From UHGV virus genome UHGV-0785300: 27,913 nt of DNA; one strand, 5' to 3'. This document shows, in pieces, positions 6,543-26,785 of the stretch. The notes beneath the pieces were generated by a model that saw only the letters and a list, made by a program, of their open reading frames with translations, was not told the DNA's origin and ran no database searches. Each line of letters starts with the position of its first letter. The first letter of the stretch is position 1. A program made the translations under genes and the position numbers. Source of the DNA: a virus.

Positions 6543-6857
6543 ATGACCCCATTAAAAGAAATGTATGAGCGCCTGGCTGAACTGCAGGCGAAGGAAAAGC
6601 GCTTCTCAGAAGAAGAGACAGAGCTGTCCGAGCTGAACACTTTGATCGCCACTCGCGAGAAGTACCTGCAGCGCTACATTAATCACCCGCCGCGCATGGT
6701 AGACCGCGTCAGCACTATCATGGACCTGGATGAAGTTACTCCTGGCAAAGAAATCATTGTCAGGGAAGTCCACCAGATGGTCGCCATGGGTCAGATCTTT
6801 GGTCGTGCAGACCAAGACGACATGATCTTCCTCCTTGAAAAGAAACTGGTGATGTGA
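6543..6857 (+). CDS. hypothetical protein (104 aa)
   Basis: AAGAGGAA SD; stop overlaps the next ATG (TGATG). Confidence 0.45.
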   Translation: MTPLKEMYERLAELQAKEKRFSEEETELSELNTLIATREKYLQRYINHPPRMVDRVSTIMDLDEVTPGKEIIVREVHQMVAMGQIFGRADQDDMIFLLEKKLVM

Positions 6858-7363
6858 TGGCTATCAAACCCCGTATGTTATTTGCGCATATGCGCTCGGC
6901 TCATGCATACGCTCTGTCCAGCTATGCCCAGCGCCTGAAGGTTGGCTGTGTTATCGTTGACCCACGTGTTGACCAACCCCTGTCTATCGGTTGGAACGGG
7001 ACTGCTCCTGGCGCTCCTAATGTCTGTGAGAAGGAAGTAGACGGTCAACTGGTATCGGTGGGTGTTATCCACGCCGAGGAGAATGCTCTGAGCAAACTCC
7101 CCCAGCACACCGAAGACTGTTGTGGTCTGGTGATGTTTGTCACTCATAGTCCATGCCCAGAGTGCACCCGTCGTATTATCGACAGTGGCAAGATCGCTAA
7201 AGTGTTCTATGACCGACCATATCGTATCATAGACGGCATTATTGAAATGCTGGCTGCTGGGATTGAAGTATATCGCATGGTCGATCAGATTGTTGTAGTC
7301 CAGCATTCTGTGAAGAACGGCGAACTGGTATCCACCCCTGTTTTAGTGAACCCTGACAAATAA
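6857..7363 (+). CDS. cd: dCMP deaminase (cytidine/deoxycytidylate deaminase zinc-binding family)
   Basis: Zinc-binding motifs VIHAEENAL (H-A-E) and SPCPECTRRI (PCxxC); start set at ATG 6857 (the track start at 6854 is GTG). Confidence 0.75.
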   Translation: MAIKPRMLFAHMRSAHAYALSSYAQRLKVGCVIVDPRVDQPLSIGWNGTAPGAPNVCEKEVDGQLVSVGVIHAEENALSKLPQHTEDCCGLVMFVTHSPCPECTRRIIDSGKIAKVFYDRPYRIIDGIIEMLAAGIEVYRMVDQIVVVQHSVKNGELVSTPVLVNPDK

Positions 7364-16441: not shown

Positions 16442-16975
16442 TCATGAACCCTCCGCCCAGACAAAGCCGTATTTGTTCAGTAGATCCACGGTTTCACCAC
16501 GAGCGCGAGCCACGATAGATTCTACTGATTCTTCCACCTCGAGTGGTGGGCAACCAGCCTTTTCGTACGTGTTAAGCAAGAGAGCAAGTTCTTTTACGAA
16601 CTCTTCTTGTTCCTCTCCTCCAAAGAACCACATCCGCAGATCGTCGCGTTCCCCGTGCTTGTTCAGAGAAGCCATATTCACGTACACGTAATCGTTTTTC
16701 TGAACAACGTCATTTATCTCCGGCCAATGCAACCCAGTCATCGCATAATTGAAGAATTCCGAAGGGGTGACTTCATCCGACAAATAATACAAACGGAAGT
16801 CACCGCTGGGGCCATGTTTGCAAGTTCTATCCAGCATTATTTTGTGGATGTCAACACGGTCTCGCTTCAAGACTTCCCGTTTCTTCAGTCGACCTCTCAG
16901 CCAGGCACTGCCAATACACAAAAGAACGAAAGCAGTAGCACCAGTGAGTATGTTGAAAGAATCAATAATGTTCAT
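16442..16975 (-). CDS. membrane-anchored hypothetical protein
   Basis: Start set at the internal ATG (MNIIDSF..., GGGGA SD) because the first ATG lies inside a hairpin; N-terminal TM helix ILTGATAFVLLCIGSAW. Confidence 0.4.
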   Translation of the reverse strand: MNIIDSFNILTGATAFVLLCIGSAWLRGRLKKREVLKRDRVDIHKIMLDRTCKHGPSGDFRLYYLSDEVTPSEFFNYAMTGLHWPEINDVVQKNDYVYVNMASLNKHGERDDLRMWFFGGEEQEEFVKELALLLNTYEKAGCPPLEVEESVESIVARARGETVDLLNKYGFVWAEGS

Positions 16976-16992
16976 AAGATCCCCGAAGTGAT

Positions 16993-17012
16993 AGAGGGGC
17001 ATAAGCCCCTCT
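16993..17012 (-). promoter_or_regulatory. intercistronic GC-rich stem-loop (AGAGGGGC-N4-GCCCCUCU)
   Basis: Perfect 8-bp inverted repeat between the PspA-like stop and the next gene; no U-tract. Confidence 0.35.
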
Positions 17013-17016
17013 GATG

Positions 17017-17625
17017 TTATTTGCTCAGGCTGGCGAGGTAGTTGTCGGCTTCGATAGACGACGGGCTGTTGGCGGAGTAGCTCGAATCAGCGATTTCGGT
17101 TTCGCGCAGGATGGCATCGATATCGATGGTGGTCATACCAGCGGCATAATCGATATCTTCAGGGAGCACCAGACCCAGGTCGTTCGTCTCTTTCTGAACA
17201 CGAACCAGCTCGAGATTGGACTTGACTTCGTCCAGTTTGTCACCCAGCTGGATGATCGCACCGTTCAGTTTGTCGCTGCTTGCTTCGATGTCCTTCACCT
17301 GAGACAACAGGGCTTCACCGATACGGCGGCGATGCAGAATAATCAGGGCGTCGGCGCGGGTTGGTGTGACACCACGAGCGATGGCATCCTTCAGAACTTC
17401 TTCGCGCTTGGCGGCTTCACTCAGGTTCTGTTCTGCGGTCTTCTTCAGCTTGACGCCGTTGCGGACGTTGGTGACACGGGCTTCCTCCAGGCGACGGATT
17501 TCGTCAGACAGCTTGCGAGCAGCCAGGTTCAGGCGCTTTTCGGTGTCGGTCAGTTTATCCAGACTTGTGGTGACGTTGGCTTCAACAGTGGTGAAGATGC
17601 GTTTCAGTAAGTTTTTCAGTGACAT
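17017..17625 (-). CDS. PspA/IM30 (phage-shock protein A)-like coiled-coil protein
   Basis: N-terminal FTTVEANVTTSLDKLTDTEKRL resembles the PspA [21 protein letters not shown] motif; heptad-like charged helices throughout; about 200 aa. Confidence 0.45.
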   Translation of the reverse strand: MSLKNLLKRIFTTVEANVTTSLDKLTDTEKRLNLAARKLSDEIRRLEEARVTNVRNGVKLKKTAEQNLSEAAKREEVLKDAIARGVTPTRADALIILHRRRIGEALLSQVKDIEASSDKLNGAIIQLGDKLDEVKSNLELVRVQKETNDLGLVLPEDIDYAAGMTTIDIDAILRETEIADSSYSANSPSSIEADNYLASLSK

Positions 17626-22373: not shown

Positions 22374-23436
22374 GGTCCATTTGCTCCAGCATGTTAGCAG
22401 GCATAACAGTACCGTTAGAAACACCGAACATTTTCTTCACGTCATCGGCGAAGTTGACATTCTCCAGCAGCGGATACCAGAAATCATCACCCATCTGACG
22501 CTTCTGATATTTCTTTTCCTTCTCAGGATCGAAGCCGCCCTTGGCTGTACGCACATACCAGCCGGAAGACGGCATATCAACATAACCCAGAGCACGAGCG
22601 ATCTCAAGCAGGCCGCTCCAGCGATCAATACCACCGTTGTACAGTACCGTCACAGGGAGCTTGGCTTTCTCTTTGACATGGCGACCTTTCATGATGCTTA
22701 TGTTGAAGTTCCAGCCCAGCAGATCTTTGTCTTCCTTCACCTGAGAACGGGTGATAAACCAGATCAAGTTGGAGGATAAGAAGCCCTGCTTGCCGCCTTT
22801 GATGTTGGGCTCGGCATACTGGTTGCCGATCTCATCGTAATAGGAGTTGATCCAAACACACACGAGATTTTTGCTGTTGATTTCGGGAGTCATGACACGC
22901 CAGAAGCTGTTAAGGGCACGGGCGCGGGTCATGTCTTGAGTGTCGTTCCCTTTGATCGCATCTTCAACTTCCTTGGTGGAGGGAAGTTGGCTGATAGAGT
23001 CGATGAAGATTATAACATGGTCGCCTTTCTTGACTTCCTGTAGGATCTGCAGCAAGCGGATCTTGGTCTGTTCAACGTTGTCGATCGGTACGTACAGGAC
23101 GCGGTCCATGTCAATGCCCATAGAGGTCCAGTAATCGGCGTTGGCACCCTTTTCTGAGTCCGCAAAGACGCAGATAGCATCAGGGAACTTGTCCATGTAC
23201 GCCTTGACGTCCACCAGGCCGAACATCGTTTTGAAGGTACGGGAATCACCCACCATCATCTTGATACCGGAGATCAGGCCGCCGTCAATACGCCCAGACC
23301 ATGCGATGTCGATCAGGGGAATACCAGTAGAACAGATGATAGACGGTTCCAGAGCGTCTGATTGGGACAGCACTGAAGCCTGGTCATCGTGTTTCTTAGC
23401 AACCTTCAGCATGCGGTCCATTAATGAACTGGCCAT
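22351..23436 (-). CDS. uvsX: UvsX recombinase (RecA/Rad51 family)
   Basis: GIKMMVGDSRTFKTMFGLVDVKAYMDKFPDAICVFADSEKG closely matches the T4 UvsX Walker-A region (LLILAGPSKSFKSNFGL...YPDAVCLFYDSEFG); AAAGAGGAAG SD. Confidence 0.85.
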   Translation of the reverse strand: MASSLMDRMLKVAKKHDDQASVLSQSDALEPSIICSTGIPLIDIAWSGRIDGGLISGIKMMVGDSRTFKTMFGLVDVKAYMDKFPDAICVFADSEKGANADYWTSMGIDMDRVLYVPIDNVEQTKIRLLQILQEVKKGDHVIIFIDSISQLPSTKEVEDAIKGNDTQDMTRARALNSFWRVMTPEINSKNLVCVWINSYYDEIGNQYAEPNIKGGKQGFLSSNLIWFITRSQVKEDKDLLGWNFNISIMKGRHVKEKAKLPVTVLYNGGIDRWSGLLEIARALGYVDMPSSGWYVRTAKGGFDPEKEKKYQKRQMGDDFWYPLLENVNFADDVKKMFGVSNGTVMPANMLEQMDHVINTSE

Positions 23437-23963
23437 TTCACTTCCTCTTTGTTGTTAATCGTCGTTAGTAAGTCTACACCCATAACCTTCTGGGACAAAA
23501 TGTTAACCGCCTCTTGGATGCTCTTCAGGGACATTGTCTCAACAAGTGACGATGCGTCATTATGCCGGTCGGTTAGGTACATATTGCGCAGATTGTTGTA
23601 GTTCGTGCGGTTGATGCACGCAGTGTTCAGTGCTATATTCAGGATATACATCATCTGTTCAATGGTTATATCCTTTGGCATAGCGTGGATGTAATAGATC
23701 GAGCCTTCAAAATAGACGTCTACCAGTTCATCTGGTATCTTGGTGCCACCACCGGCATACTCTTCGATCATCCTGAACAGAGACTCTGGTTGCTCGCTGG
23801 CGATCTTATGCGTAACAGTCGCCGAAAGACCGTCGCCCGGTTTAACAGGCCTGGTGTATTCGGTAAAGAATACATTATGTCCGCCGCCGATGATGTGCTC
23901 GGCGAATTTGGAGGATGCCTGAGCAGCGTTCTCCGCATGGTATGAAACGACGACTGTAAACAT
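23421..23963 (-). CDS. hypothetical protein (180 aa) within the nucleotide-metabolism operon
   Basis: ATG coupled to the upstream stop; overlaps the uvsX start by 16 nt; no confident motif. Confidence 0.45.
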   Translation of the reverse strand: MFTVVVSYHAENAAQASSKFAEHIIGGGHNVFFTEYTRPVKPGDGLSATVTHKIASEQPESLFRMIEEYAGGGTKIPDELVDVYFEGSIYYIHAMPKDITIEQMMYILNIALNTACINRTNYNNLRNMYLTDRHNDASSLVETMSLKSIQEAVNILSQKVMGVDLLTTINNKEEVKWPVH

Positions 23964-24517
23964 TAGAACTCCAGGGTCAGAGGGGTTTCTGCGGACTTGT
24001 CGTAATCCGCGCCACCAGAAGCACGTAGACGATTGCGATCGTTCTTGCGTTTGTGCGCCAGTATGTAAGTCTCAATGTCGATCTCCATATAAGAACACGC
24101 AGACGACAGGAAGAACATGAGAGTCTCAACGCAAGGATCGTTCATGAATTGCCCAAGGCGGTACGTAACATTGCGATGCCCTGCAACACCCAAAGCACAC
24201 GGGGTGAATTCGCGATTACTAAGGACTTCAAATTCTTCTTCGATCTCACCTTTGGTGCGGTCCACAAGGATGAAGCACAACATGAAGTGTACCACGTCCA
24301 CCAGTTCATAAACTGCGTTCGTATGGTCAAACCCGATGTCGTTGCCATAGACCTTCCAGTCACGGGTGGTTTCATCAAGGAACTCTGCCCACTCACGATA
24401 GATAGAGTTGATGACTGCATTCTGACTCCATACATTCTTCCACTCTTCCCCAAAGTAGGCCACGTTGGTGGCCTTTTGGAGTTCGAGCAGGCTTTGGATA
24501 TGCCCTGCTGTGATCAT
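23963..24517 (-). CDS. putative all-alpha dNTP pyrophosphatase (T4 gp56 dCTPase/dUTPase-like)
   Basis: Acidic helical motifs (EEWKNVW..., EWAEFLDET..., ELVDVVHFMLCFIL) resemble the gp56/dimeric-dUTPase pattern as remembered; ATGA coupling to the dNMP kinase gene. Confidence 0.5.
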   Translation of the reverse strand: MITAGHIQSLLELQKATNVAYFGEEWKNVWSQNAVINSIYREWAEFLDETTRDWKVYGNDIGFDHTNAVYELVDVVHFMLCFILVDRTKGEIEEEFEVLSNREFTPCALGVAGHRNVTYRLGQFMNDPCVETLMFFLSSACSYMEIDIETYILAHKRKNDRNRLRASGGADYDKSAETPLTLEF

Positions 24518-25083
24518 TTACGTTCTCCGTAGAATTTAACGAACGGTGCCCAACCATCAAATGGATTGAGGAATTCGTAGTCCACTTTCATTTGGTCAAT
24601 GAAAGCCTCTATATCGTCCTCTATGATACCAGCACGGTCGGCCTTTGAAATACGGGTGATAGGACATTTCGTACTCAGCGCCCATTCATATTCCTGAGGG
24701 GTACGCAGATCGCTCACGATATAATGGACGTGGGGGTTCTGCTCTACCAAAGGAAGCTGGAAGCGCTTGAAGAATGCCAGGAACAGATCAGGCTGTACGT
24801 AACGCAAGCCCGTATCGCTGCCTAGATGAAGCCAGATCTGCCGTGGAGTTAAGCCCTTGGGGTTATCAGGGTGCACGTAAGGAACGTCCTTCACGGCATC
24901 CTCTACCTCCGCTGGCAGCCATGGATAGATGAAGTTGGCAACCCGGCGCAGTTCATCTGAGAACGAAAGGCGCTGGATGTCCATATCACCCTGTAGTTGG
25001 TGATAGCTGATGAGGGACTCCAAACAGAAGTCCTTGCCGGAACGCTTGCGCCCCGTAAAGAATTCAAGATTTGGGTACATCAT
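24514..25083 (-). CDS. deoxynucleoside monophosphate kinase (T4 gp1-like)
   Basis: P-loop FFTGRKRSGKDF matches T4 gp1 FLSGVKRSGKDT; YIVSDLRTPQEYE resembles gp1 YIVPDTRQDHEMD. Confidence 0.7.
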   Translation of the reverse strand: MMYPNLEFFTGRKRSGKDFCLESLISYHQLQGDMDIQRLSFSDELRRVANFIYPWLPAEVEDAVKDVPYVHPDNPKGLTPRQIWLHLGSDTGLRYVQPDLFLAFFKRFQLPLVEQNPHVHYIVSDLRTPQEYEWALSTKCPITRISKADRAGIIEDDIEAFIDQMKVDYEFLNPFDGWAPFVKFYGERK

Positions 25084-26126
25084 ACTACACCTTCCAGGAA
25101 CTTAGGATCAACGATCTTGCGGTCAACCGGAGAATGGGTGAGCGCGGTGTTCAATCCATGATCCTGAATCAGGTCCAGGTTAATGAGCTTGTTATTCAAT
25201 TTGCAGTGCAGGCAGTATGCCATCTGCACAATCAGACCGCGATCCGCATCATACTCCTTCAGGAAGGCAACAACAGTTTCCCAAGGACTACCGAAGTCAC
25301 AATGAACAAGCACGCCAGTGAACAGATCGCGGATATGGTTCTGGTTGGTCACGTTCGTGAAGTGGATCATGGAGTTGATGAACCCAGCTTCTACTTTGGT
25401 GTCCTTCGTGATCTTGCCCAGCTGCTTCTGGCTGACTTCATTGTTGTAGTAATGAAGATTGTTAGAGAATAGCTTGTACTGACCGACATCAACATCCAAC
25501 ACCCGAGCAATCACTTCCTGAAGAATAGAGAACTCAATGAAGTTGATTGAACTCATACCCCACAGAACATCCTGTGAGCGATTGATAACCGTCAGGTTCA
25601 GACGACCTTCAACGATGGCGAACAACAGAGCCAGGTTACACACCATGTCCTTAGTCTTCGCTTCGCCGCTCTCGCTGAACTTCGCCAGACCAGCATCCGA
25701 ATCCAGAGCCGGATCATAGATGGTGAGGTACGCCTGGCGAGTGTTTGGATTCTTGCGCAGGCGGTTGATGACGCTATCCAGCTGGCCATGGGCGTACAGA
25801 CGCGGACCATAAGCGGCTCGCCATGTGTGGCCGTTGTCGGAAAAGTTGGCGGCGCGGGGCAACACGCGGGACAGGAAGCGAACGTCATCGCGCCCGGACA
25901 GAACCCAGAAGGTCTCGCCGATGGCAGCGATAGCCGATGAGTTACGACCTTCAACGGATAGCCAGCGGTCACGGATGTCGGCGACGGTTATGGTCACGCC
26001 ATCAAGGAAGCGGGTGCTATCAGTATTGATTTCAGCATTACCAGGATCAGATTCGATCCCGAATTCACGGATAGCCAAGACAGCCTGTTTCAGCATGTCA
26101 TTGTTGTTTATTGCTTTGATTTCCAT
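25080..26126 (-). CDS. thymidylate-synthase-fold pyrimidine hydroxymethylase (dUMP/dCMP hydroxymethylase-like) with C-terminal extension
   Basis: NPNTRQAYLTIY matches the T4 gp42 and TS motif NPDSRRGIMIY; catalytic-Cys context DMVCNLALLF; NRSQDVLWG matches RSNDVVFG/RSCDVFLG; SNNLHYY matches the TS C-terminal motif; 348 aa versus about 250 for gp42. Confidence 0.7.
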   Translation of the reverse strand: MEIKAINNNDMLKQAVLAIREFGIESDPGNAEINTDSTRFLDGVTITVADIRDRWLSVEGRNSSAIAAIGETFWVLSGRDDVRFLSRVLPRAANFSDNGHTWRAAYGPRLYAHGQLDSVINRLRKNPNTRQAYLTIYDPALDSDAGLAKFSESGEAKTKDMVCNLALLFAIVEGRLNLTVINRSQDVLWGMSSINFIEFSILQEVIARVLDVDVGQYKLFSNNLHYYNNEVSQKQLGKITKDTKVEAGFINSMIHFTNVTNQNHIRDLFTGVLVHCDFGSPWETVVAFLKEYDADRGLIVQMAYCLHCKLNNKLINLDLIQDHGLNTALTHSPVDRKIVDPKFLEGVV

Positions 26127-26785
26127 CAGATACTCCCAAAATCACGACAGAGGAATGCCATCACAGCCTGGTCTACTGTTAGGCCGTGAGACTTCATCAT
26201 ACCCGCAGCCACCGTAGGGAACAAGTCTTTATGTCGTTGACAATGGTCATGAACTCTCTCCCACTTCTCAACCACCAGACTTTCATTGAAGTCCACACCG
26301 CCGTTACGTGATTTAACACGGGCGATACACGTTTCAAGAGGAGTGTCCATAAAGAGCACAACCAATTCACGTGGTGGGCGTGTCAGACGGGGGATCCAAG
26401 AACTCAATAATGTGGATGGAATGATACCTTCGAAAATCACATCATATTTCAAGTATTCTGGTTGGTCAGCAATAGACAACGCGAACAACATCTGCTCAGT
26501 GTCCTTCAGGGAATCAACCCCCTTGGACTTCGACTTGTCATATTTACCGATACAGACCACGTTGAACGAAGGACAGACAGTCAGCATGACCTTGCCGTTA
26601 TGGGTCACGACATACGCCTGAGGATCCCTCTCCGCCAGCTGAGACGGCACAGTGGATTTACCGCTACCATTGGAGCCTTTGACGTAGTAGATTTGCCCTC
26701 GTGCTGGGTAGATCCCCTTTACGACGGGTGGTTTAAAGAATGTGTGGACGGGGCGCTTCATCAGCCCCTTCAGGGAGTAGGACAT
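26126..26785 (-). CDS. P-loop nucleotide/polynucleotide kinase-like protein (candidate hydroxymethyl-pyrimidine kinase)
   Basis: Walker A VKGSNGSGKST near the N-terminus; 219 aa; ATGA coupled to the hydroxymethylase gene; GGAGCAG SD. Confidence 0.5.
   Translation of the reverse strand: MSYSLKGLMKRPVHTFFKPPVVKGIYPARGQIYYVKGSNGSGKSTVPSQLAERDPQAYVVTHNGKVMLTVCPSFNVVCIGKYDKSKSKGVDSLKDTEQMLFALSIADQPEYLKYDVIFEGIIPSTLLSSWIPRLTRPPRELVVLFMDTPLETCIARVKSRNGGVDFNESLVVEKWERVHDHCQRHKDLFPTVAAGMMKSHGLTVDQAVMAFLCRDFGSI

What the first reader, a model, noticed from the sequence alone, without database searches (positions are those of the whole stretch)
25080..26126. Hydroxymethylase carries an extra C-terminal region of about 90-100 aa and an Asn-type specificity residue
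TS-fold motifs end near residue 225 (SNNLHYYNNE), but the ORF continues to 348 aa, far beyond T4 gp42. The position equivalent to TS Asn177 / gp42 Asp179 appears to be Asn (GMSSINF), which would favour uracil (dUMP) over cytosine. The extension may be a fused domain of unknown function.
Basis: inference. Interest (0 to 1): 0.7.

Follow-up and report, generated by a model that had tools for sequence, protein, structure and literature searches.

The report
Phage dUMP hydroxymethylase with helical tail domain
This gene encodes the ordinary dUMP hydroxymethylase of ViI-like (Ackermannviridae) phages, which makes the 5-hydroxymethyl-dUMP precursor of their modified thymine; its "extra" C-terminal region and its Asn residue are normal for this enzyme family.

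Summary
A 348-aa ORF lies on the minus strand at 25080-26126. It has a thymidylate-synthase (TS) fold core, an invariant Asn195 at the TS-Asn177 / T4 gp42-Asp179 / MilA-Asp186 position, and about 90 residues beyond the gp42-like core.

It is not unusual. The protein is 100% identical to Escherichia phage AV101 WJJ54031.1 and orthologous to the ViI/CBA120 "thymidylate synthase", recognised as a dUMP hydroxymethylase since 2011. It sits in an overlapping operon: 5-hmdU DNA kinase, this gene, dNMP kinase, dUTPase.

The hydroxymethylase Asp at Cys-3 (D160) and the deoxyribose pair (R130, S184) are present.

All established dUMP hydroxymethylases are equally long: SPO1 gp29 383 aa, PhiW-14 357 aa, M6 351 aa.

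AlphaFold (pLDDT 94.5) shows five C-terminal helices. The best solved match is MilA, aligned over its full length, and MilA has a described extra five-helix C-terminal domain. This domain replaces the TS C-terminal folate-closing tail. It diverges much faster than the core, is under purifying selection, has no sequence match outside this family, and never occurs alone.

Its most likely role is a structural accessory domain; a partner-docking role is not excluded. Verdict: already known, low interest.

The parts
25080..26126 (-). Whole ORF, 348 aa plus TGA stop: dUMP 5-hydroxymethylase (TS superfamily).
   Evidence: ORF. (PF00303, E 1.5e-15). (100% identical to AV101 WJJ54031.1; 731 phage records with homologs). 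(phrog_3676 over the full length, E 5.7e-181).
25356..26126 (-). Residues 1-257: TS-fold catalytic core, including the MilA-like N-terminal segment.
   Evidence: AF2 model pLDDT 94.5. Foldseek matches to MilA and TS. Profile match to MilA over residues 8-235, E 2e-50.
25083..25355 (-). Residues 258-348: C-terminal five-helix accessory domain (helices 262-278, 282-290, 298-310, 323-331, 335-338). It holds the conserved motifs GLIxDMAYxLWCRLN and SPVDRK.
25638..25640 (-). Cys163 codon (TGT): catalytic nucleophile, equivalent to E. coli TS Cys146, gp42 Cys148 and MilA Cys155.
   Evidence: Invariant in 68/68. Codon checked.
25647..25649 (-). Asp160 codon (GAC): Asp three residues before the catalytic Cys, the residue that activates the water for hydroxylation. 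It corresponds to gp42 Asp145; TS has Leu143 here.
   Evidence: 67/68 homologs have Asp. The signature is defined in PMC6400193. Codon checked.
25542..25544 (-). Asn195 codon (AAC): pyrimidine-specificity residue, equivalent to TS Asn177, gp42 Asp179 and MilA Asp186.
   Evidence: alignments. (68/68 Asn). (codon).
25575..25577 (-). Ser184 codon. Together with Arg130 (25737-25739) it forms the deoxyribose-preferring pair; MilA has Ala176 and Lys133' at these positions.
   Evidence: Alignments. Rule from PMC5175136. Frequencies. Codons.
26126..26785 (-). Upstream gene: 5-hmdU DNA kinase (5-HMUDK). Its TGA stop overlaps the hydroxymethylase ATG by 1 nt.
   Evidence: PF18748, E 7.4e-108. Overlap read.
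24514..25083 (-). Downstream gene: dNMP kinase-like protein. Its ATG overlaps the hydroxymethylase stop (ATGA, 4 nt).
   Evidence: phrog_139 deoxynucleoside monophosphate kinase, E 7.5e-47. Overlap read.
23963..24517 (-). dUTPase_2 / MazG-like NTP pyrophosphohydrolase in the same operon.
   Evidence: PF08761, E 4e-09.
6854..7363 (+). dCMP deaminase, a likely supplier of dUMP substrate.
   Evidence: PF00383, E 4.2e-16. Its role in hmU phages is described in PMC8989533.

Best explanation
The ORF encodes the Ackermannviridae dUMP 5-hydroxymethylase. Its reaction is dUMP + 5,10-methylene-THF + H2O -> 5-hmdUMP + THF.

By analogy with TS and T4 dCMP hydroxymethylase, the proposed mechanism is as follows. 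Cys163 attacks C6 of dUMP. Asn195 reads the uracil face. Arg61, Arg130' and Arg183/Ser184 hold the 5'-phosphate of a deoxyribonucleotide. His225 and Tyr227 hold the 3'-OH. Glu71 opens the cofactor. Instead of hydride transfer, a water activated by Asp160 adds to the exocyclic methylene.

The product would then be phosphorylated (the dNMP kinase is encoded immediately downstream) and incorporated into DNA. There it would be activated by the 5-hmdU DNA kinase encoded immediately upstream and converted to the family's hypermodified thymidine.

Residues ~258-348 form a five-helix accessory domain. It takes the place of the TS C-terminal beta-strands and folate-closing tail, and it is the structural counterpart of helices alpha9-alpha13 of MilA. 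Its most likely role is structural: it stabilises the fold without sealing the folate site. Its presence is shown here; its role is inferred.
For: Identity and context:
- PF00303 match.
- 100% identical to the AV101 protein, with full-length orthologs across Ackermannviridae.
- Overlapping operon with PF18748 5-hmdU DNA kinase, dNMP kinase and dUTPase.
- PhiW-14 has the same order: TS homolog, dNMP kinase, dUTPase, a small gene, UvsX.

Active site:
- R61, E71, Y106, C163, R183, D186, N195, H225 and Y227 are invariant in 68 homologs. D160 is present in 67/68.
- N195 aligns to the TS Asn and to MilA Asp186.
- The Asp at Cys-3 is the published hydroxymethylation signature (PMC6400193).
- Arg130 and Ser184 are the deoxyribose pair (PMC5175136).

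Literature:
- CBA120 does not incorporate 3H-thymidine, and its ortholog clusters with the SPO1, PhiW-14 and YuA dUMP hydroxymethylases (PMC3184105).
- 5-HMUDK co-occurs with dUMP hydroxymethyltransferase in ViI-like phages (PMC5889632).

C-terminal domain:
- The AF2 model has pLDDT 94.5 with five C-terminal helices.
- Foldseek's best PDB hit is MilA: E 5e-19, TM 0.73/0.80, 347 alignment columns. TS hits give ~245-270 columns and TM ~0.54.
- MilA's extra five-helix domain lies away from the active site, and its truncations are insoluble (PMC5175136).
- Phage homologs phiA8-29 (381 aa) and Colly_1 (359 aa) align over their full length, TM 0.80-0.87.
- SPO1 gp29 is 383 aa, PhiW-14 357 aa, M6 351 aa and nACB2 370 aa. 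SPO1, PhiW-14 and nACB2 have 131-157 residues after the HxY Tyr, against 121 here; the M6 count was not obtained reliably.
- dN/dS of the domain is 0.07.
Against: - No enzyme from an Ackermannviridae phage has been assayed in the papers I could search. The substrate and product are inferred.
- The Ser/Thr at Tyr-2 that is part of the T4 dCH signature is Ala104 here, and Ala or Gly across the family. The water network may therefore differ.
- The second phosphate-binding Arg (E. coli TS R127) is Gln131 here.
- The structural role is extrapolated from MilA truncations reported as 'data not shown'.
- I could not inspect model coordinates, so the position of the domain relative to the folate site and the dimer interface was not measured.
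Confidence: 0.82

Rival explanations
1. The C-terminal domain is a lineage-specific docking or regulatory module. It might tether the hydroxymethylase to the downstream dNMP kinase, the 5-hmdU DNA kinase or the replisome so that 5-hmdUMP is channelled. This would be in addition to, or instead of, a passive structural role.
For: - The domain evolves much faster than the core: mean pairwise identity is 43% against 78% among 23 Ackermannviridae-type sequences.
- It is nevertheless under purifying selection (dN/dS 0.07).
- In near-identical Kuttervirus genomes, the divergent island spans the domain-coding 3' part of this gene and the 5' two-thirds of the dNMP kinase gene.
- The genes are translationally coupled.
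- The tail motif S-P-[VF]-[DR]-[RK]-[KF] is conserved from this phage to PhiW-14 and to a metagenomic group. hhalign between these groups gives E 1.5e-4, probability 51%.
Against: - No interaction data exist.
- Co-divergence with the kinase gene is explained equally well by simple linkage in a recombination tract.
- MilA, which acts in an antibiotic pathway without such partners, has the same kind of domain.
- No pair of sequences has a C-terminal domain more similar than its core, so there is no sign of allele swapping tied to partners.
Confidence: 0.2
2. It is a conventional thymidylate synthase that makes dTMP, as the GenBank annotation 'putative thymidylate synthase' says. On this reading the extension is just a variant C-terminus.
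For: Pfam PF00303 is the only family hit. Database names say 'thymidylate synthase'.
Against: - Asp160 replaces the TS Leu143.
- TS profile positions 220-266, including the folate-closing tail, are missing.
- TS structures align over only ~245-270 columns.
- The closest solved relative is a hydroxymethylase.
- The gene is adjacent to 5-hmdU DNA kinase.
- The related phage CBA120 does not incorporate thymidine (PMC3184105).
Confidence: 0.03
3. It is a cytosine-specific (dCMP or CMP) hydroxymethylase like T4 gp42 or MilA.
For: MilA is the best solved-structure match by both sequence and fold.
Against: - The specificity residue is Asn in all 68 homologs, whereas MilA, BcmA and gp42 have Asp.
- The ribose-specific Lys/Ala pair of MilA is Arg/Ser here.
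- ViI-like phages modify thymine, not cytosine (PMC3184105, PMC5889632).
Confidence: 0.02

Closest known systems
dUMP hydroxymethylases of hmU and hypermodified-T phages: SPO1 gp29 (DUHM_BPSP1), PhiW-14 gp231, M6 gp058, and the ViI/CBA120 orf073 orthologs
   Same: All have a TS-fold core with a K-D-x-P/V-C-N catalytic loop and the R-S-x-D...G-x-x-x-[IA]-N motif carrying the Asn. All have a long C-terminal region of 120-160 residues after the HxY motif. They are linked to dNMP kinase and dUTPase genes, and to 5-HMUDK in the hypermodifying phages (PMC5889632).
   Different: The sequence of the C-terminal domain is lineage-specific. The profile of the Ackermannviridae domain finds only its own family among 1.84 billion representatives. 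It is only marginally similar to the PhiW-14-type domain and not detectably similar to the M6 or SPO1 types.
MilA, CMP 5-hydroxymethylase of Streptomyces rimofaciens (PDB 5JNH, 5B6D, 5B6E, 5JP9)
   Same: It is the best solved match by sequence (E 8e-18 for the single sequence, 2e-50 for the profile) and by fold (TM 0.73/0.80 over the full length). It shares the N-terminal segment, the Asp at Cys-3 and an extra five-helix C-terminal domain in place of the TS tail.
   Different: MilA has Asp186 (cytosine) and Lys133'/Ala176 (ribose). This protein has Asn195 and Arg130/Ser184. The C-terminal domains share no detectable sequence similarity. MilA is a bacterial antibiotic-pathway enzyme, not a phage DNA-modification enzyme.
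T4 gp42 dCMP hydroxymethylase (PDB 1B5E and the ternary complex of PMC6400193)
   Same: The chemistry is the same: hydration of the exocyclic methylene, with THF as product. The Asp at Cys-3 is shared, and both lack the TS folate-closing tail.
   Different: gp42 stops about 28 residues after the HxY tyrosine and has no C-terminal helical domain. It has Asp179 (cytosine) and Ser94 at Tyr-2, where this protein has Asn195 and Ala104.
E. coli ThyA and other classical thymidylate synthases
   Same: The fold and the dimer-forming beta-sheet core are shared, as are the Cys nucleophile, Glu58, Arg21, Arg166, Asp169, Asn177, His207 and Tyr209 equivalents, and the dUMP substrate.
   Different: TS has Leu143 instead of Asp at Cys-3. 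It also has a C-terminal beta-hairpin and tail that seals the folate for hydride transfer; here that is replaced by the helical domain.

Membership tests
Thymidylate synthase superfamily (ThyA fold, PF00303) | Significant match to the family profile | tested here: met
   PF00303: E 1.5e-15, 57.5 bits against a cutoff of 24.3, residues 67-235.
Thymidylate synthase superfamily (ThyA fold, PF00303) | ThyA three-dimensional fold | tested here: met
   AF2 model pLDDT 94.5, pTM 0.93. Foldseek probability 1.00 to MilA and to dozens of TS structures.
Thymidylate synthase superfamily (ThyA fold, PF00303) | Catalytic Cys nucleophile and the conserved Glu, Arg, Asp, His and Tyr active-site set | tested here: met
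   C163, E71, R61, R183, D186, H225, Y227 and Y106 are invariant in 68/68.
Classical methylating thymidylate synthase (dTMP-forming) | Hydrophobic Leu at Cys-3 (E. coli TS Leu143) and a C-terminal tail that closes over the folate | tested here: not met
   Asp160 occupies Cys-3. TS profile positions 220-266 are unmatched. The C-terminus consists of five helices.
Pyrimidine hydroxymethylases (T4 dCH signature of PMC6400193) | [quoted passage not shown] | tested here: met
   D160-M-V-C163. Asp is present in 67/68 homologs. Signature text read.
Pyrimidine hydroxymethylases (T4 dCH signature of PMC6400193) | Ser or Thr two residues before the catalytic-base Tyr (gp42 Ser94-x-Tyr96) | tested here: not met
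   Ala104-Ala105-Tyr106. The family has Ala or Gly at this position, and the PhiW-14 and SPO1 enzymes also lack Ser. This feature appears to be specific to the cytosine enzymes.
Pyrimidine hydroxymethylases (T4 dCH signature of PMC6400193) | Products are the 5-hydroxymethyl nucleotide and THF, not DHF | not testable with these tools
   Requires an enzyme assay.
dUMP hydroxymethylase (SPO1 gp29 / PhiW-14 type) | Asn at the TS-177 / gp42-179 / MilA-186 specificity position | tested here: met
   N195 aligns to the TS Asn and to MilA Asp186. It is Asn in 68/68 homologs and in SPO1, PhiW-14, M6 and nACB2.
dUMP hydroxymethylase (SPO1 gp29 / PhiW-14 type) | Deoxyribose-preferring pair: Arg at E. coli TS 126' and Ser at E. 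coli TS 167 | tested here: met
   R130 and S184. Rule taken from PMC5175136.
dUMP hydroxymethylase (SPO1 gp29 / PhiW-14 type) | Genomic association with 5-hmdU pathway genes | tested here: met
   5-HMUDK (PF18748, E 7e-108) lies immediately upstream. dNMP kinase and dUTPase lie downstream, with overlapping start and stop codons. PhiW-14 has the same gene order.
dUMP hydroxymethylase (SPO1 gp29 / PhiW-14 type) | Phage DNA carries 5-hmdU or a derivative | not testable with these tools
   Known for the relatives ViI and CBA120 (PMC5889632, PMC3184105, PMC11721090). Not known for this particular phage.
MilA-type C-terminal helical domain | Five alpha-helices following the TS core in place of the TS C-terminal strands and tail | tested here: met
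   Helices at 262-278, 282-290, 298-310, 323-331 and 335-338. MilA alpha9-alpha13 are described in PMC5175136.
MilA-type C-terminal helical domain | Structural superposition that includes the C-terminal domain | tested here: met
   Foldseek to 5jnh_A gives 347 alignment columns for a 318-residue chain, TM 0.73 (query) and 0.80 (target). TS hits give ~245-270 columns.
MilA-type C-terminal helical domain | The domain on its own retrieves the MilA domain specifically | tested here: inconclusive
MilA-type C-terminal helical domain | Sequence homology of the domain | tested here: not met
   HMMER alignments to MilA stop at about residue 235 for the query, for its profile and for two other subfamilies.
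CMP hydroxymethylase (MilA / BcmA function) | Asp at the specificity position together with the Lys133'/Ala176 ribose pair | tested here: not met
   Asn195, Arg130 and Ser184.

The most novel reading that the evidence does not exclude
The C-terminal helical domain is a fast-diverging partner-docking module, not just a folding cap. It would assemble the phage's 5-hmdUTP-synthesising enzymes (hydroxymethylase, the co-diverging downstream dNMP kinase, perhaps the dUTPase) into a channelling complex. Its hypervariability among otherwise 97-100% identical Kuttervirus genomes would then reflect co-evolution with those partners, or escape from a host factor that targets this enzyme.
Probability: 0.15. 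Interest if true: 0.55.

Novelty: already known. Interest (0 to 1): 0.18.

Why it matters
The enzyme catalyses the first committed step of thymidine hypermodification in Ackermannviridae, a family widely considered for phage therapy and biocontrol. The modification protects their DNA from restriction.

This analysis mainly corrects an annotation. In public records the gene is called 'thymidylate synthase'. The neighbouring 5-hmdU DNA kinase is called 'terminase small subunit' or 'hypothetical protein'.

It also shows that the long C-terminus is a family trait shared with MilA. The role of that domain is still untested, but this is a modest open question rather than a surprise.

Tried and rejected
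- **Domain occurring elsewhere.** An HMM of the domain searched against 1.84 billion representatives gave 3 hits, all from the same family; one is a 69-aa fragment. Rejected: it is not a mobile or stand-alone domain.
- **Sequence link to the MilA C-terminal domain.** I tried the query, its profile, and two other subfamilies (P0042, P0101). All alignments stop near residue 235.
- **Chain of homology between C-terminal subfamilies by hhalign.** Ackermannviridae type versus PhiW-14/metagenomic type gave 51% probability (E 1.5e-4). The G3 and G4 (M6-type) groups gave 96%. There was no link between the two sets.
- **Allele swapping of the C-terminal domain.** No pair of sequences has C-terminal identity equal to or above its core identity. 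One pair, maane versus phage 38, has dS 1.9 in the domain against 0.35 in the core, which indicates a recombination tract.
- **Window origin.** I first assumed the window was phage AV101 itself. Megablast shows it is about 97.7% identical to vB_EcoM-ZQ1, AV101 and LHE287, with indels. Only the protein is identical to AV101's. In one search the 'AV101' sequence is the GenBank record; it is the window.
Full report
**What is there**

The finding's coordinates correspond to one ORF on the minus strand, 25080..26126: ATG start, 348 aa, TGA stop. SNNLHYYNNE spans residues 221-230 and GMSSINF spans 190-196. Pfam gives a single family, PF00303 thymidylate synthase (E 1.5e-15), covering residues 67-235 and profile positions 54-219 of 266. 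The last ~45 positions of the TS profile are therefore unmatched, and 113 further residues follow.

The protein is 100% identical to WJJ54031.1 ('putative thymidylate synthase') of Escherichia phage AV101 (Ackermannviridae, Aglimvirinae). Full-length orthologs exist throughout Ackermannviridae. The window itself is not AV101. It is about 97.7% identical at the nucleotide level to vB_EcoM-ZQ1, AV101, LHE287 and others, with indels.

**Context**

The gene lies in a tightly packed minus-strand operon.
- Immediately upstream is a 5-hmdU DNA kinase (PF18748, E 7e-108). Its TGA shares one base with the ATG of this gene.
- Immediately downstream is a dNMP kinase homolog (phrog_139, E 7.5e-47). Its ATG overlaps this gene's stop (ATGA).
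- A dUTPase_2/MazG-like protein, an ACT_phage protein and UvsX follow.
- A dCMP deaminase is at 6854-7363(+).

Delftia phage PhiW-14, a classical hmdU-pathway phage, has the same order: TS homolog, dNMP kinase, dUTPase, a small gene, UvsX.

The literature already covers this locus.
- Kutter et al. 2011 showed that the ViI-like phage CBA120 does not incorporate 3H-thymidine. They also showed that its 'TS' (orf073, next to a dNMP kinase) groups with the dUMP hydroxymethylases of SPO1, PhiW-14 and YuA (PMC3184105).
- Lee et al. 2018 noted that 5-HMUDK co-associates with a dUMP hydroxymethyltransferase in these phages. They showed that ViI DNA carries 5-(2-aminoethoxy)methyl-dU derived from 5-hmdU (PMC5889632; PMC11721090).

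**Active site and specificity**

In a 68-sequence alignment of homologs (identity to the query falls to about 25%), these residues are invariant: R61, E71, W74, Y106, R109, C163, R183, D186, G190, N195, H225 and Y227. D160 is present in 67/68.

HMMER alignments put N195 opposite the Asn of TS (6auj). In the profile alignment it lies opposite Asp186 of MilA, with a one-residue insertion just before it. According to the MilA paper, this position is Asp in the cytosine enzymes (MilA, BcmA, T4 dCH) and Asn in TS and dUMP hydroxymethylase (PMC5175136). It is also the expected state.

The two residues that make MilA prefer ribose (Lys133', Ala176) are Arg130 and Ser184 here, which is the deoxyribose state.

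The published signature that separates hydroxymethylases from methylating TS is an Asp three residues before the catalytic Cys (gp42 Asp145; Leu143 in E. coli TS). It is met by Asp160 (PMC6400193). The second half of that signature, Ser/Thr at Tyr-2, is not met: the residue is Ala104. It is also absent from SPO1 gp29 and PhiW-14, so it looks specific to the cytosine enzymes.

**The C-terminal region**

AlphaFold2 with the 68-sequence alignment gives a confident model (mean pLDDT 94.5, pTM 0.93). The TS-like core runs to about residue 257. Five helices follow: 262-278, 282-290, 298-310, 323-331 and 335-338.

Foldseek against the PDB puts MilA first (E 5e-19). The alignment has 347 columns and covers essentially the whole 318-residue chain (TM 0.73/0.80). 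TS structures align over only ~245-270 columns with TM about 0.54.

Among predicted viral structures, Aeromonas phage phiA8-29 (381 aa) and Maribacter phage Colly_1 (359 aa) align over their full length with TM 0.80-0.87.

**The extension is the family norm**

The established dUMP hydroxymethylases are all long.

| Enzyme | Length (aa) | Residues after the HxY Tyr |
|---|---|---|
| This protein | 348 | 121 |
| SPO1 gp29 | 383 | 157 |
| PhiW-14 gp231 | 357 | 131 |
| nACB2 | 370 | 136 |
| M6 gp058 | 351 | not obtained reliably |

Most metagenomic homologs are 320-400 aa, and some are 490-600 aa. PMC6400193 stresses that it lacks any C-terminal tail.

The domain is neither a normal TS C-terminus nor a new fusion. 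It is a lineage-variable accessory domain common to the MilA / dUMP-hydroxymethylase branch of the superfamily.

**Properties of the domain**

- It has no Pfam family. In PHROGs it matches only the C-terminus of the same TS family, phrog_3676.
- A profile of the domain found only three cluster representatives among 1.84 billion proteins. Two are full-length Ackermannviridae-type enzymes and one is a 69-aa fragment. It therefore never occurs alone or in another context.
- It diverges much faster than the core. For example, P0004 is 95% identical in the core but 50% in the C-terminus. The means are 78% against 43%.
- It is still under purifying selection: dN/dS is 0.07 for window versus phage SP1, against 0.11 for the core.
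- Conserved motifs within Ackermannviridae are GLIxDMAYxLWCRLN and D-x-G-L-x-x-A-L-x-x-S-P-V-D-R-K.
- The terminal S-P-[VF]-[DR]-[RK]-[KF] motif recurs in PhiW-14 (SPFRKF), nACB2 (SAFKNF) and a metagenomic group (SSFRKF). hhalign links these two groups weakly (E 1.5e-4, probability 51%).

**Mechanism**

- *Shown:* the fold, the catalytic residues, the specificity residues and the operon context.
- *Inferred from TS and dCH chemistry:* Cys163 adds to C6 of dUMP; methylene transfer from CH2-THF follows; THF is eliminated; a water activated by Asp160 adds to the exocyclic methylene. The products are 5-hmdUMP and THF.
- *Inferred from the MilA precedent:* the helical domain substitutes for the TS C-terminal strands and tail and stabilises the fold. 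It does not seal the folate pocket, which suits a reaction that needs water instead of hydride transfer.

A docking role for partner enzymes cannot be excluded; I give it about 0.2.

**Verdict**

The thing itself is the known dUMP hydroxymethylase of ViI-like phages, with the architecture typical of its family. Novelty is 'already known' and interest is low.

**Side observations**

- Three Kuttervirus genomes (SP1, maane, phage 38) are 97-100% identical in the flanks. They nevertheless carry a ~1-1.6 kb island of 43-85% identity. It covers this gene, most strongly the C-terminal-domain-coding part, and the 5' part of the dNMP kinase gene. Phage 38 has an HNH endonuclease ORF inserted just upstream.
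- Eleven distant homologs combine the MilA ribose pair (Lys/Ala) with Asn. This predicts UMP hydroxymethylases.

Noticed in passing
L009 (Salmonella phage SP1), L010 (maane), L011 (phage 38); corresponds to window ~24700-26300: These Kuttervirus genomes are 97-100% nt identical for >2 kb on both sides. They carry a ~1-1.6 kb divergent island covering the dUMP hydroxymethylase gene and the 5' two-thirds of the dNMP kinase gene. The core is 72-86% identical and the C-terminal-domain-coding part 43-60%. For maane versus phage 38, dS is 0.35 in the core and 1.9 in the C-terminal part, which indicates a recombination tract. The gene in the AV101 record (Aglimvirinae; its protein is identical to the window's) is closer to SP1's (Cvivirinae; 83-94% nt) than the flanking genes are (30-80%).
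   Followed up: partly
L011:2405-2584 (Salmonella phage 38): An HNH endonuclease ORF is inserted between the 5-hmdU DNA kinase gene and the hydroxymethylase gene. It is absent from the window, AV101, SP1 and maane. A homing endonuclease here could drive the local mosaicism.
   Followed up: no
Proteins P0040-P0043, P0045-P0048, P0056, P0062, P0066, some on bacterial chromosomes (Paenarthrobacter, Rhizobium rhizogenes): These 346-366 aa homologs combine MilA's ribose-preferring pair (Lys at window position 130, Ala at 184) with Asn at 195 and Asp at 160. That pattern predicts a ThyA-fold UMP (ribonucleotide) 5-hydroxymethylase, an activity I did not find described.
   Followed up: no
Proteins P0049, P0051, P0074, P0075, P0097 (Brevibacterium phage LuckyBarnes), P0105, P0116: These 490-600 aa homologs have the TS core at the N-terminus followed by 280-370 residues with no Pfam match. 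P0115 has an N-terminal nucleoside 2-deoxyribosyltransferase domain fused to the TS core.
   Followed up: partly
window 26126-26785 (-) and orthologs in public records: The 5-hmdU DNA kinase (PF18748, E 7e-108) is annotated 'hypothetical protein' in AV101. It is annotated 'terminase small subunit' in SP1, phage 38, aagejoakim and KpS110. The hydroxymethylase is annotated 'thymidylate synthase' nearly everywhere.
   Followed up: yes
window 16442-17002 (-) and 17017-17625 (-): Two ORFs (186 and 202 aa) lie between the DNA ligase gene and the next conserved gene and are not annotated at this place in AV101. The 202-aa product matches the PspA/IM30 family (PF04012, E 3.7e-10). The other has no Pfam match.
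   Followed up: no
window 23421-23963 (-): A 180-aa protein matches the full length of Pfam ACT_phage (PF24021, E 3e-78) and phrog_3839 (unknown function). It sits between the dUTPase-like gene and uvsX in the same operon as the nucleotide-modification genes. A regulatory (ligand-binding) role in this pathway is conceivable.
   Followed up: no
PDB entries 9iqu_A, 9iqc_A, 9ir2: These 'Thymidylate synthase' chains of 234-238 aa match the hydroxymethylase-family profile from its N-terminus (profile positions 3-226, E ~1.6e-17). They are therefore short, gp42-like members without the C-terminal helical domain. I did not establish their source or function.
   Followed up: no
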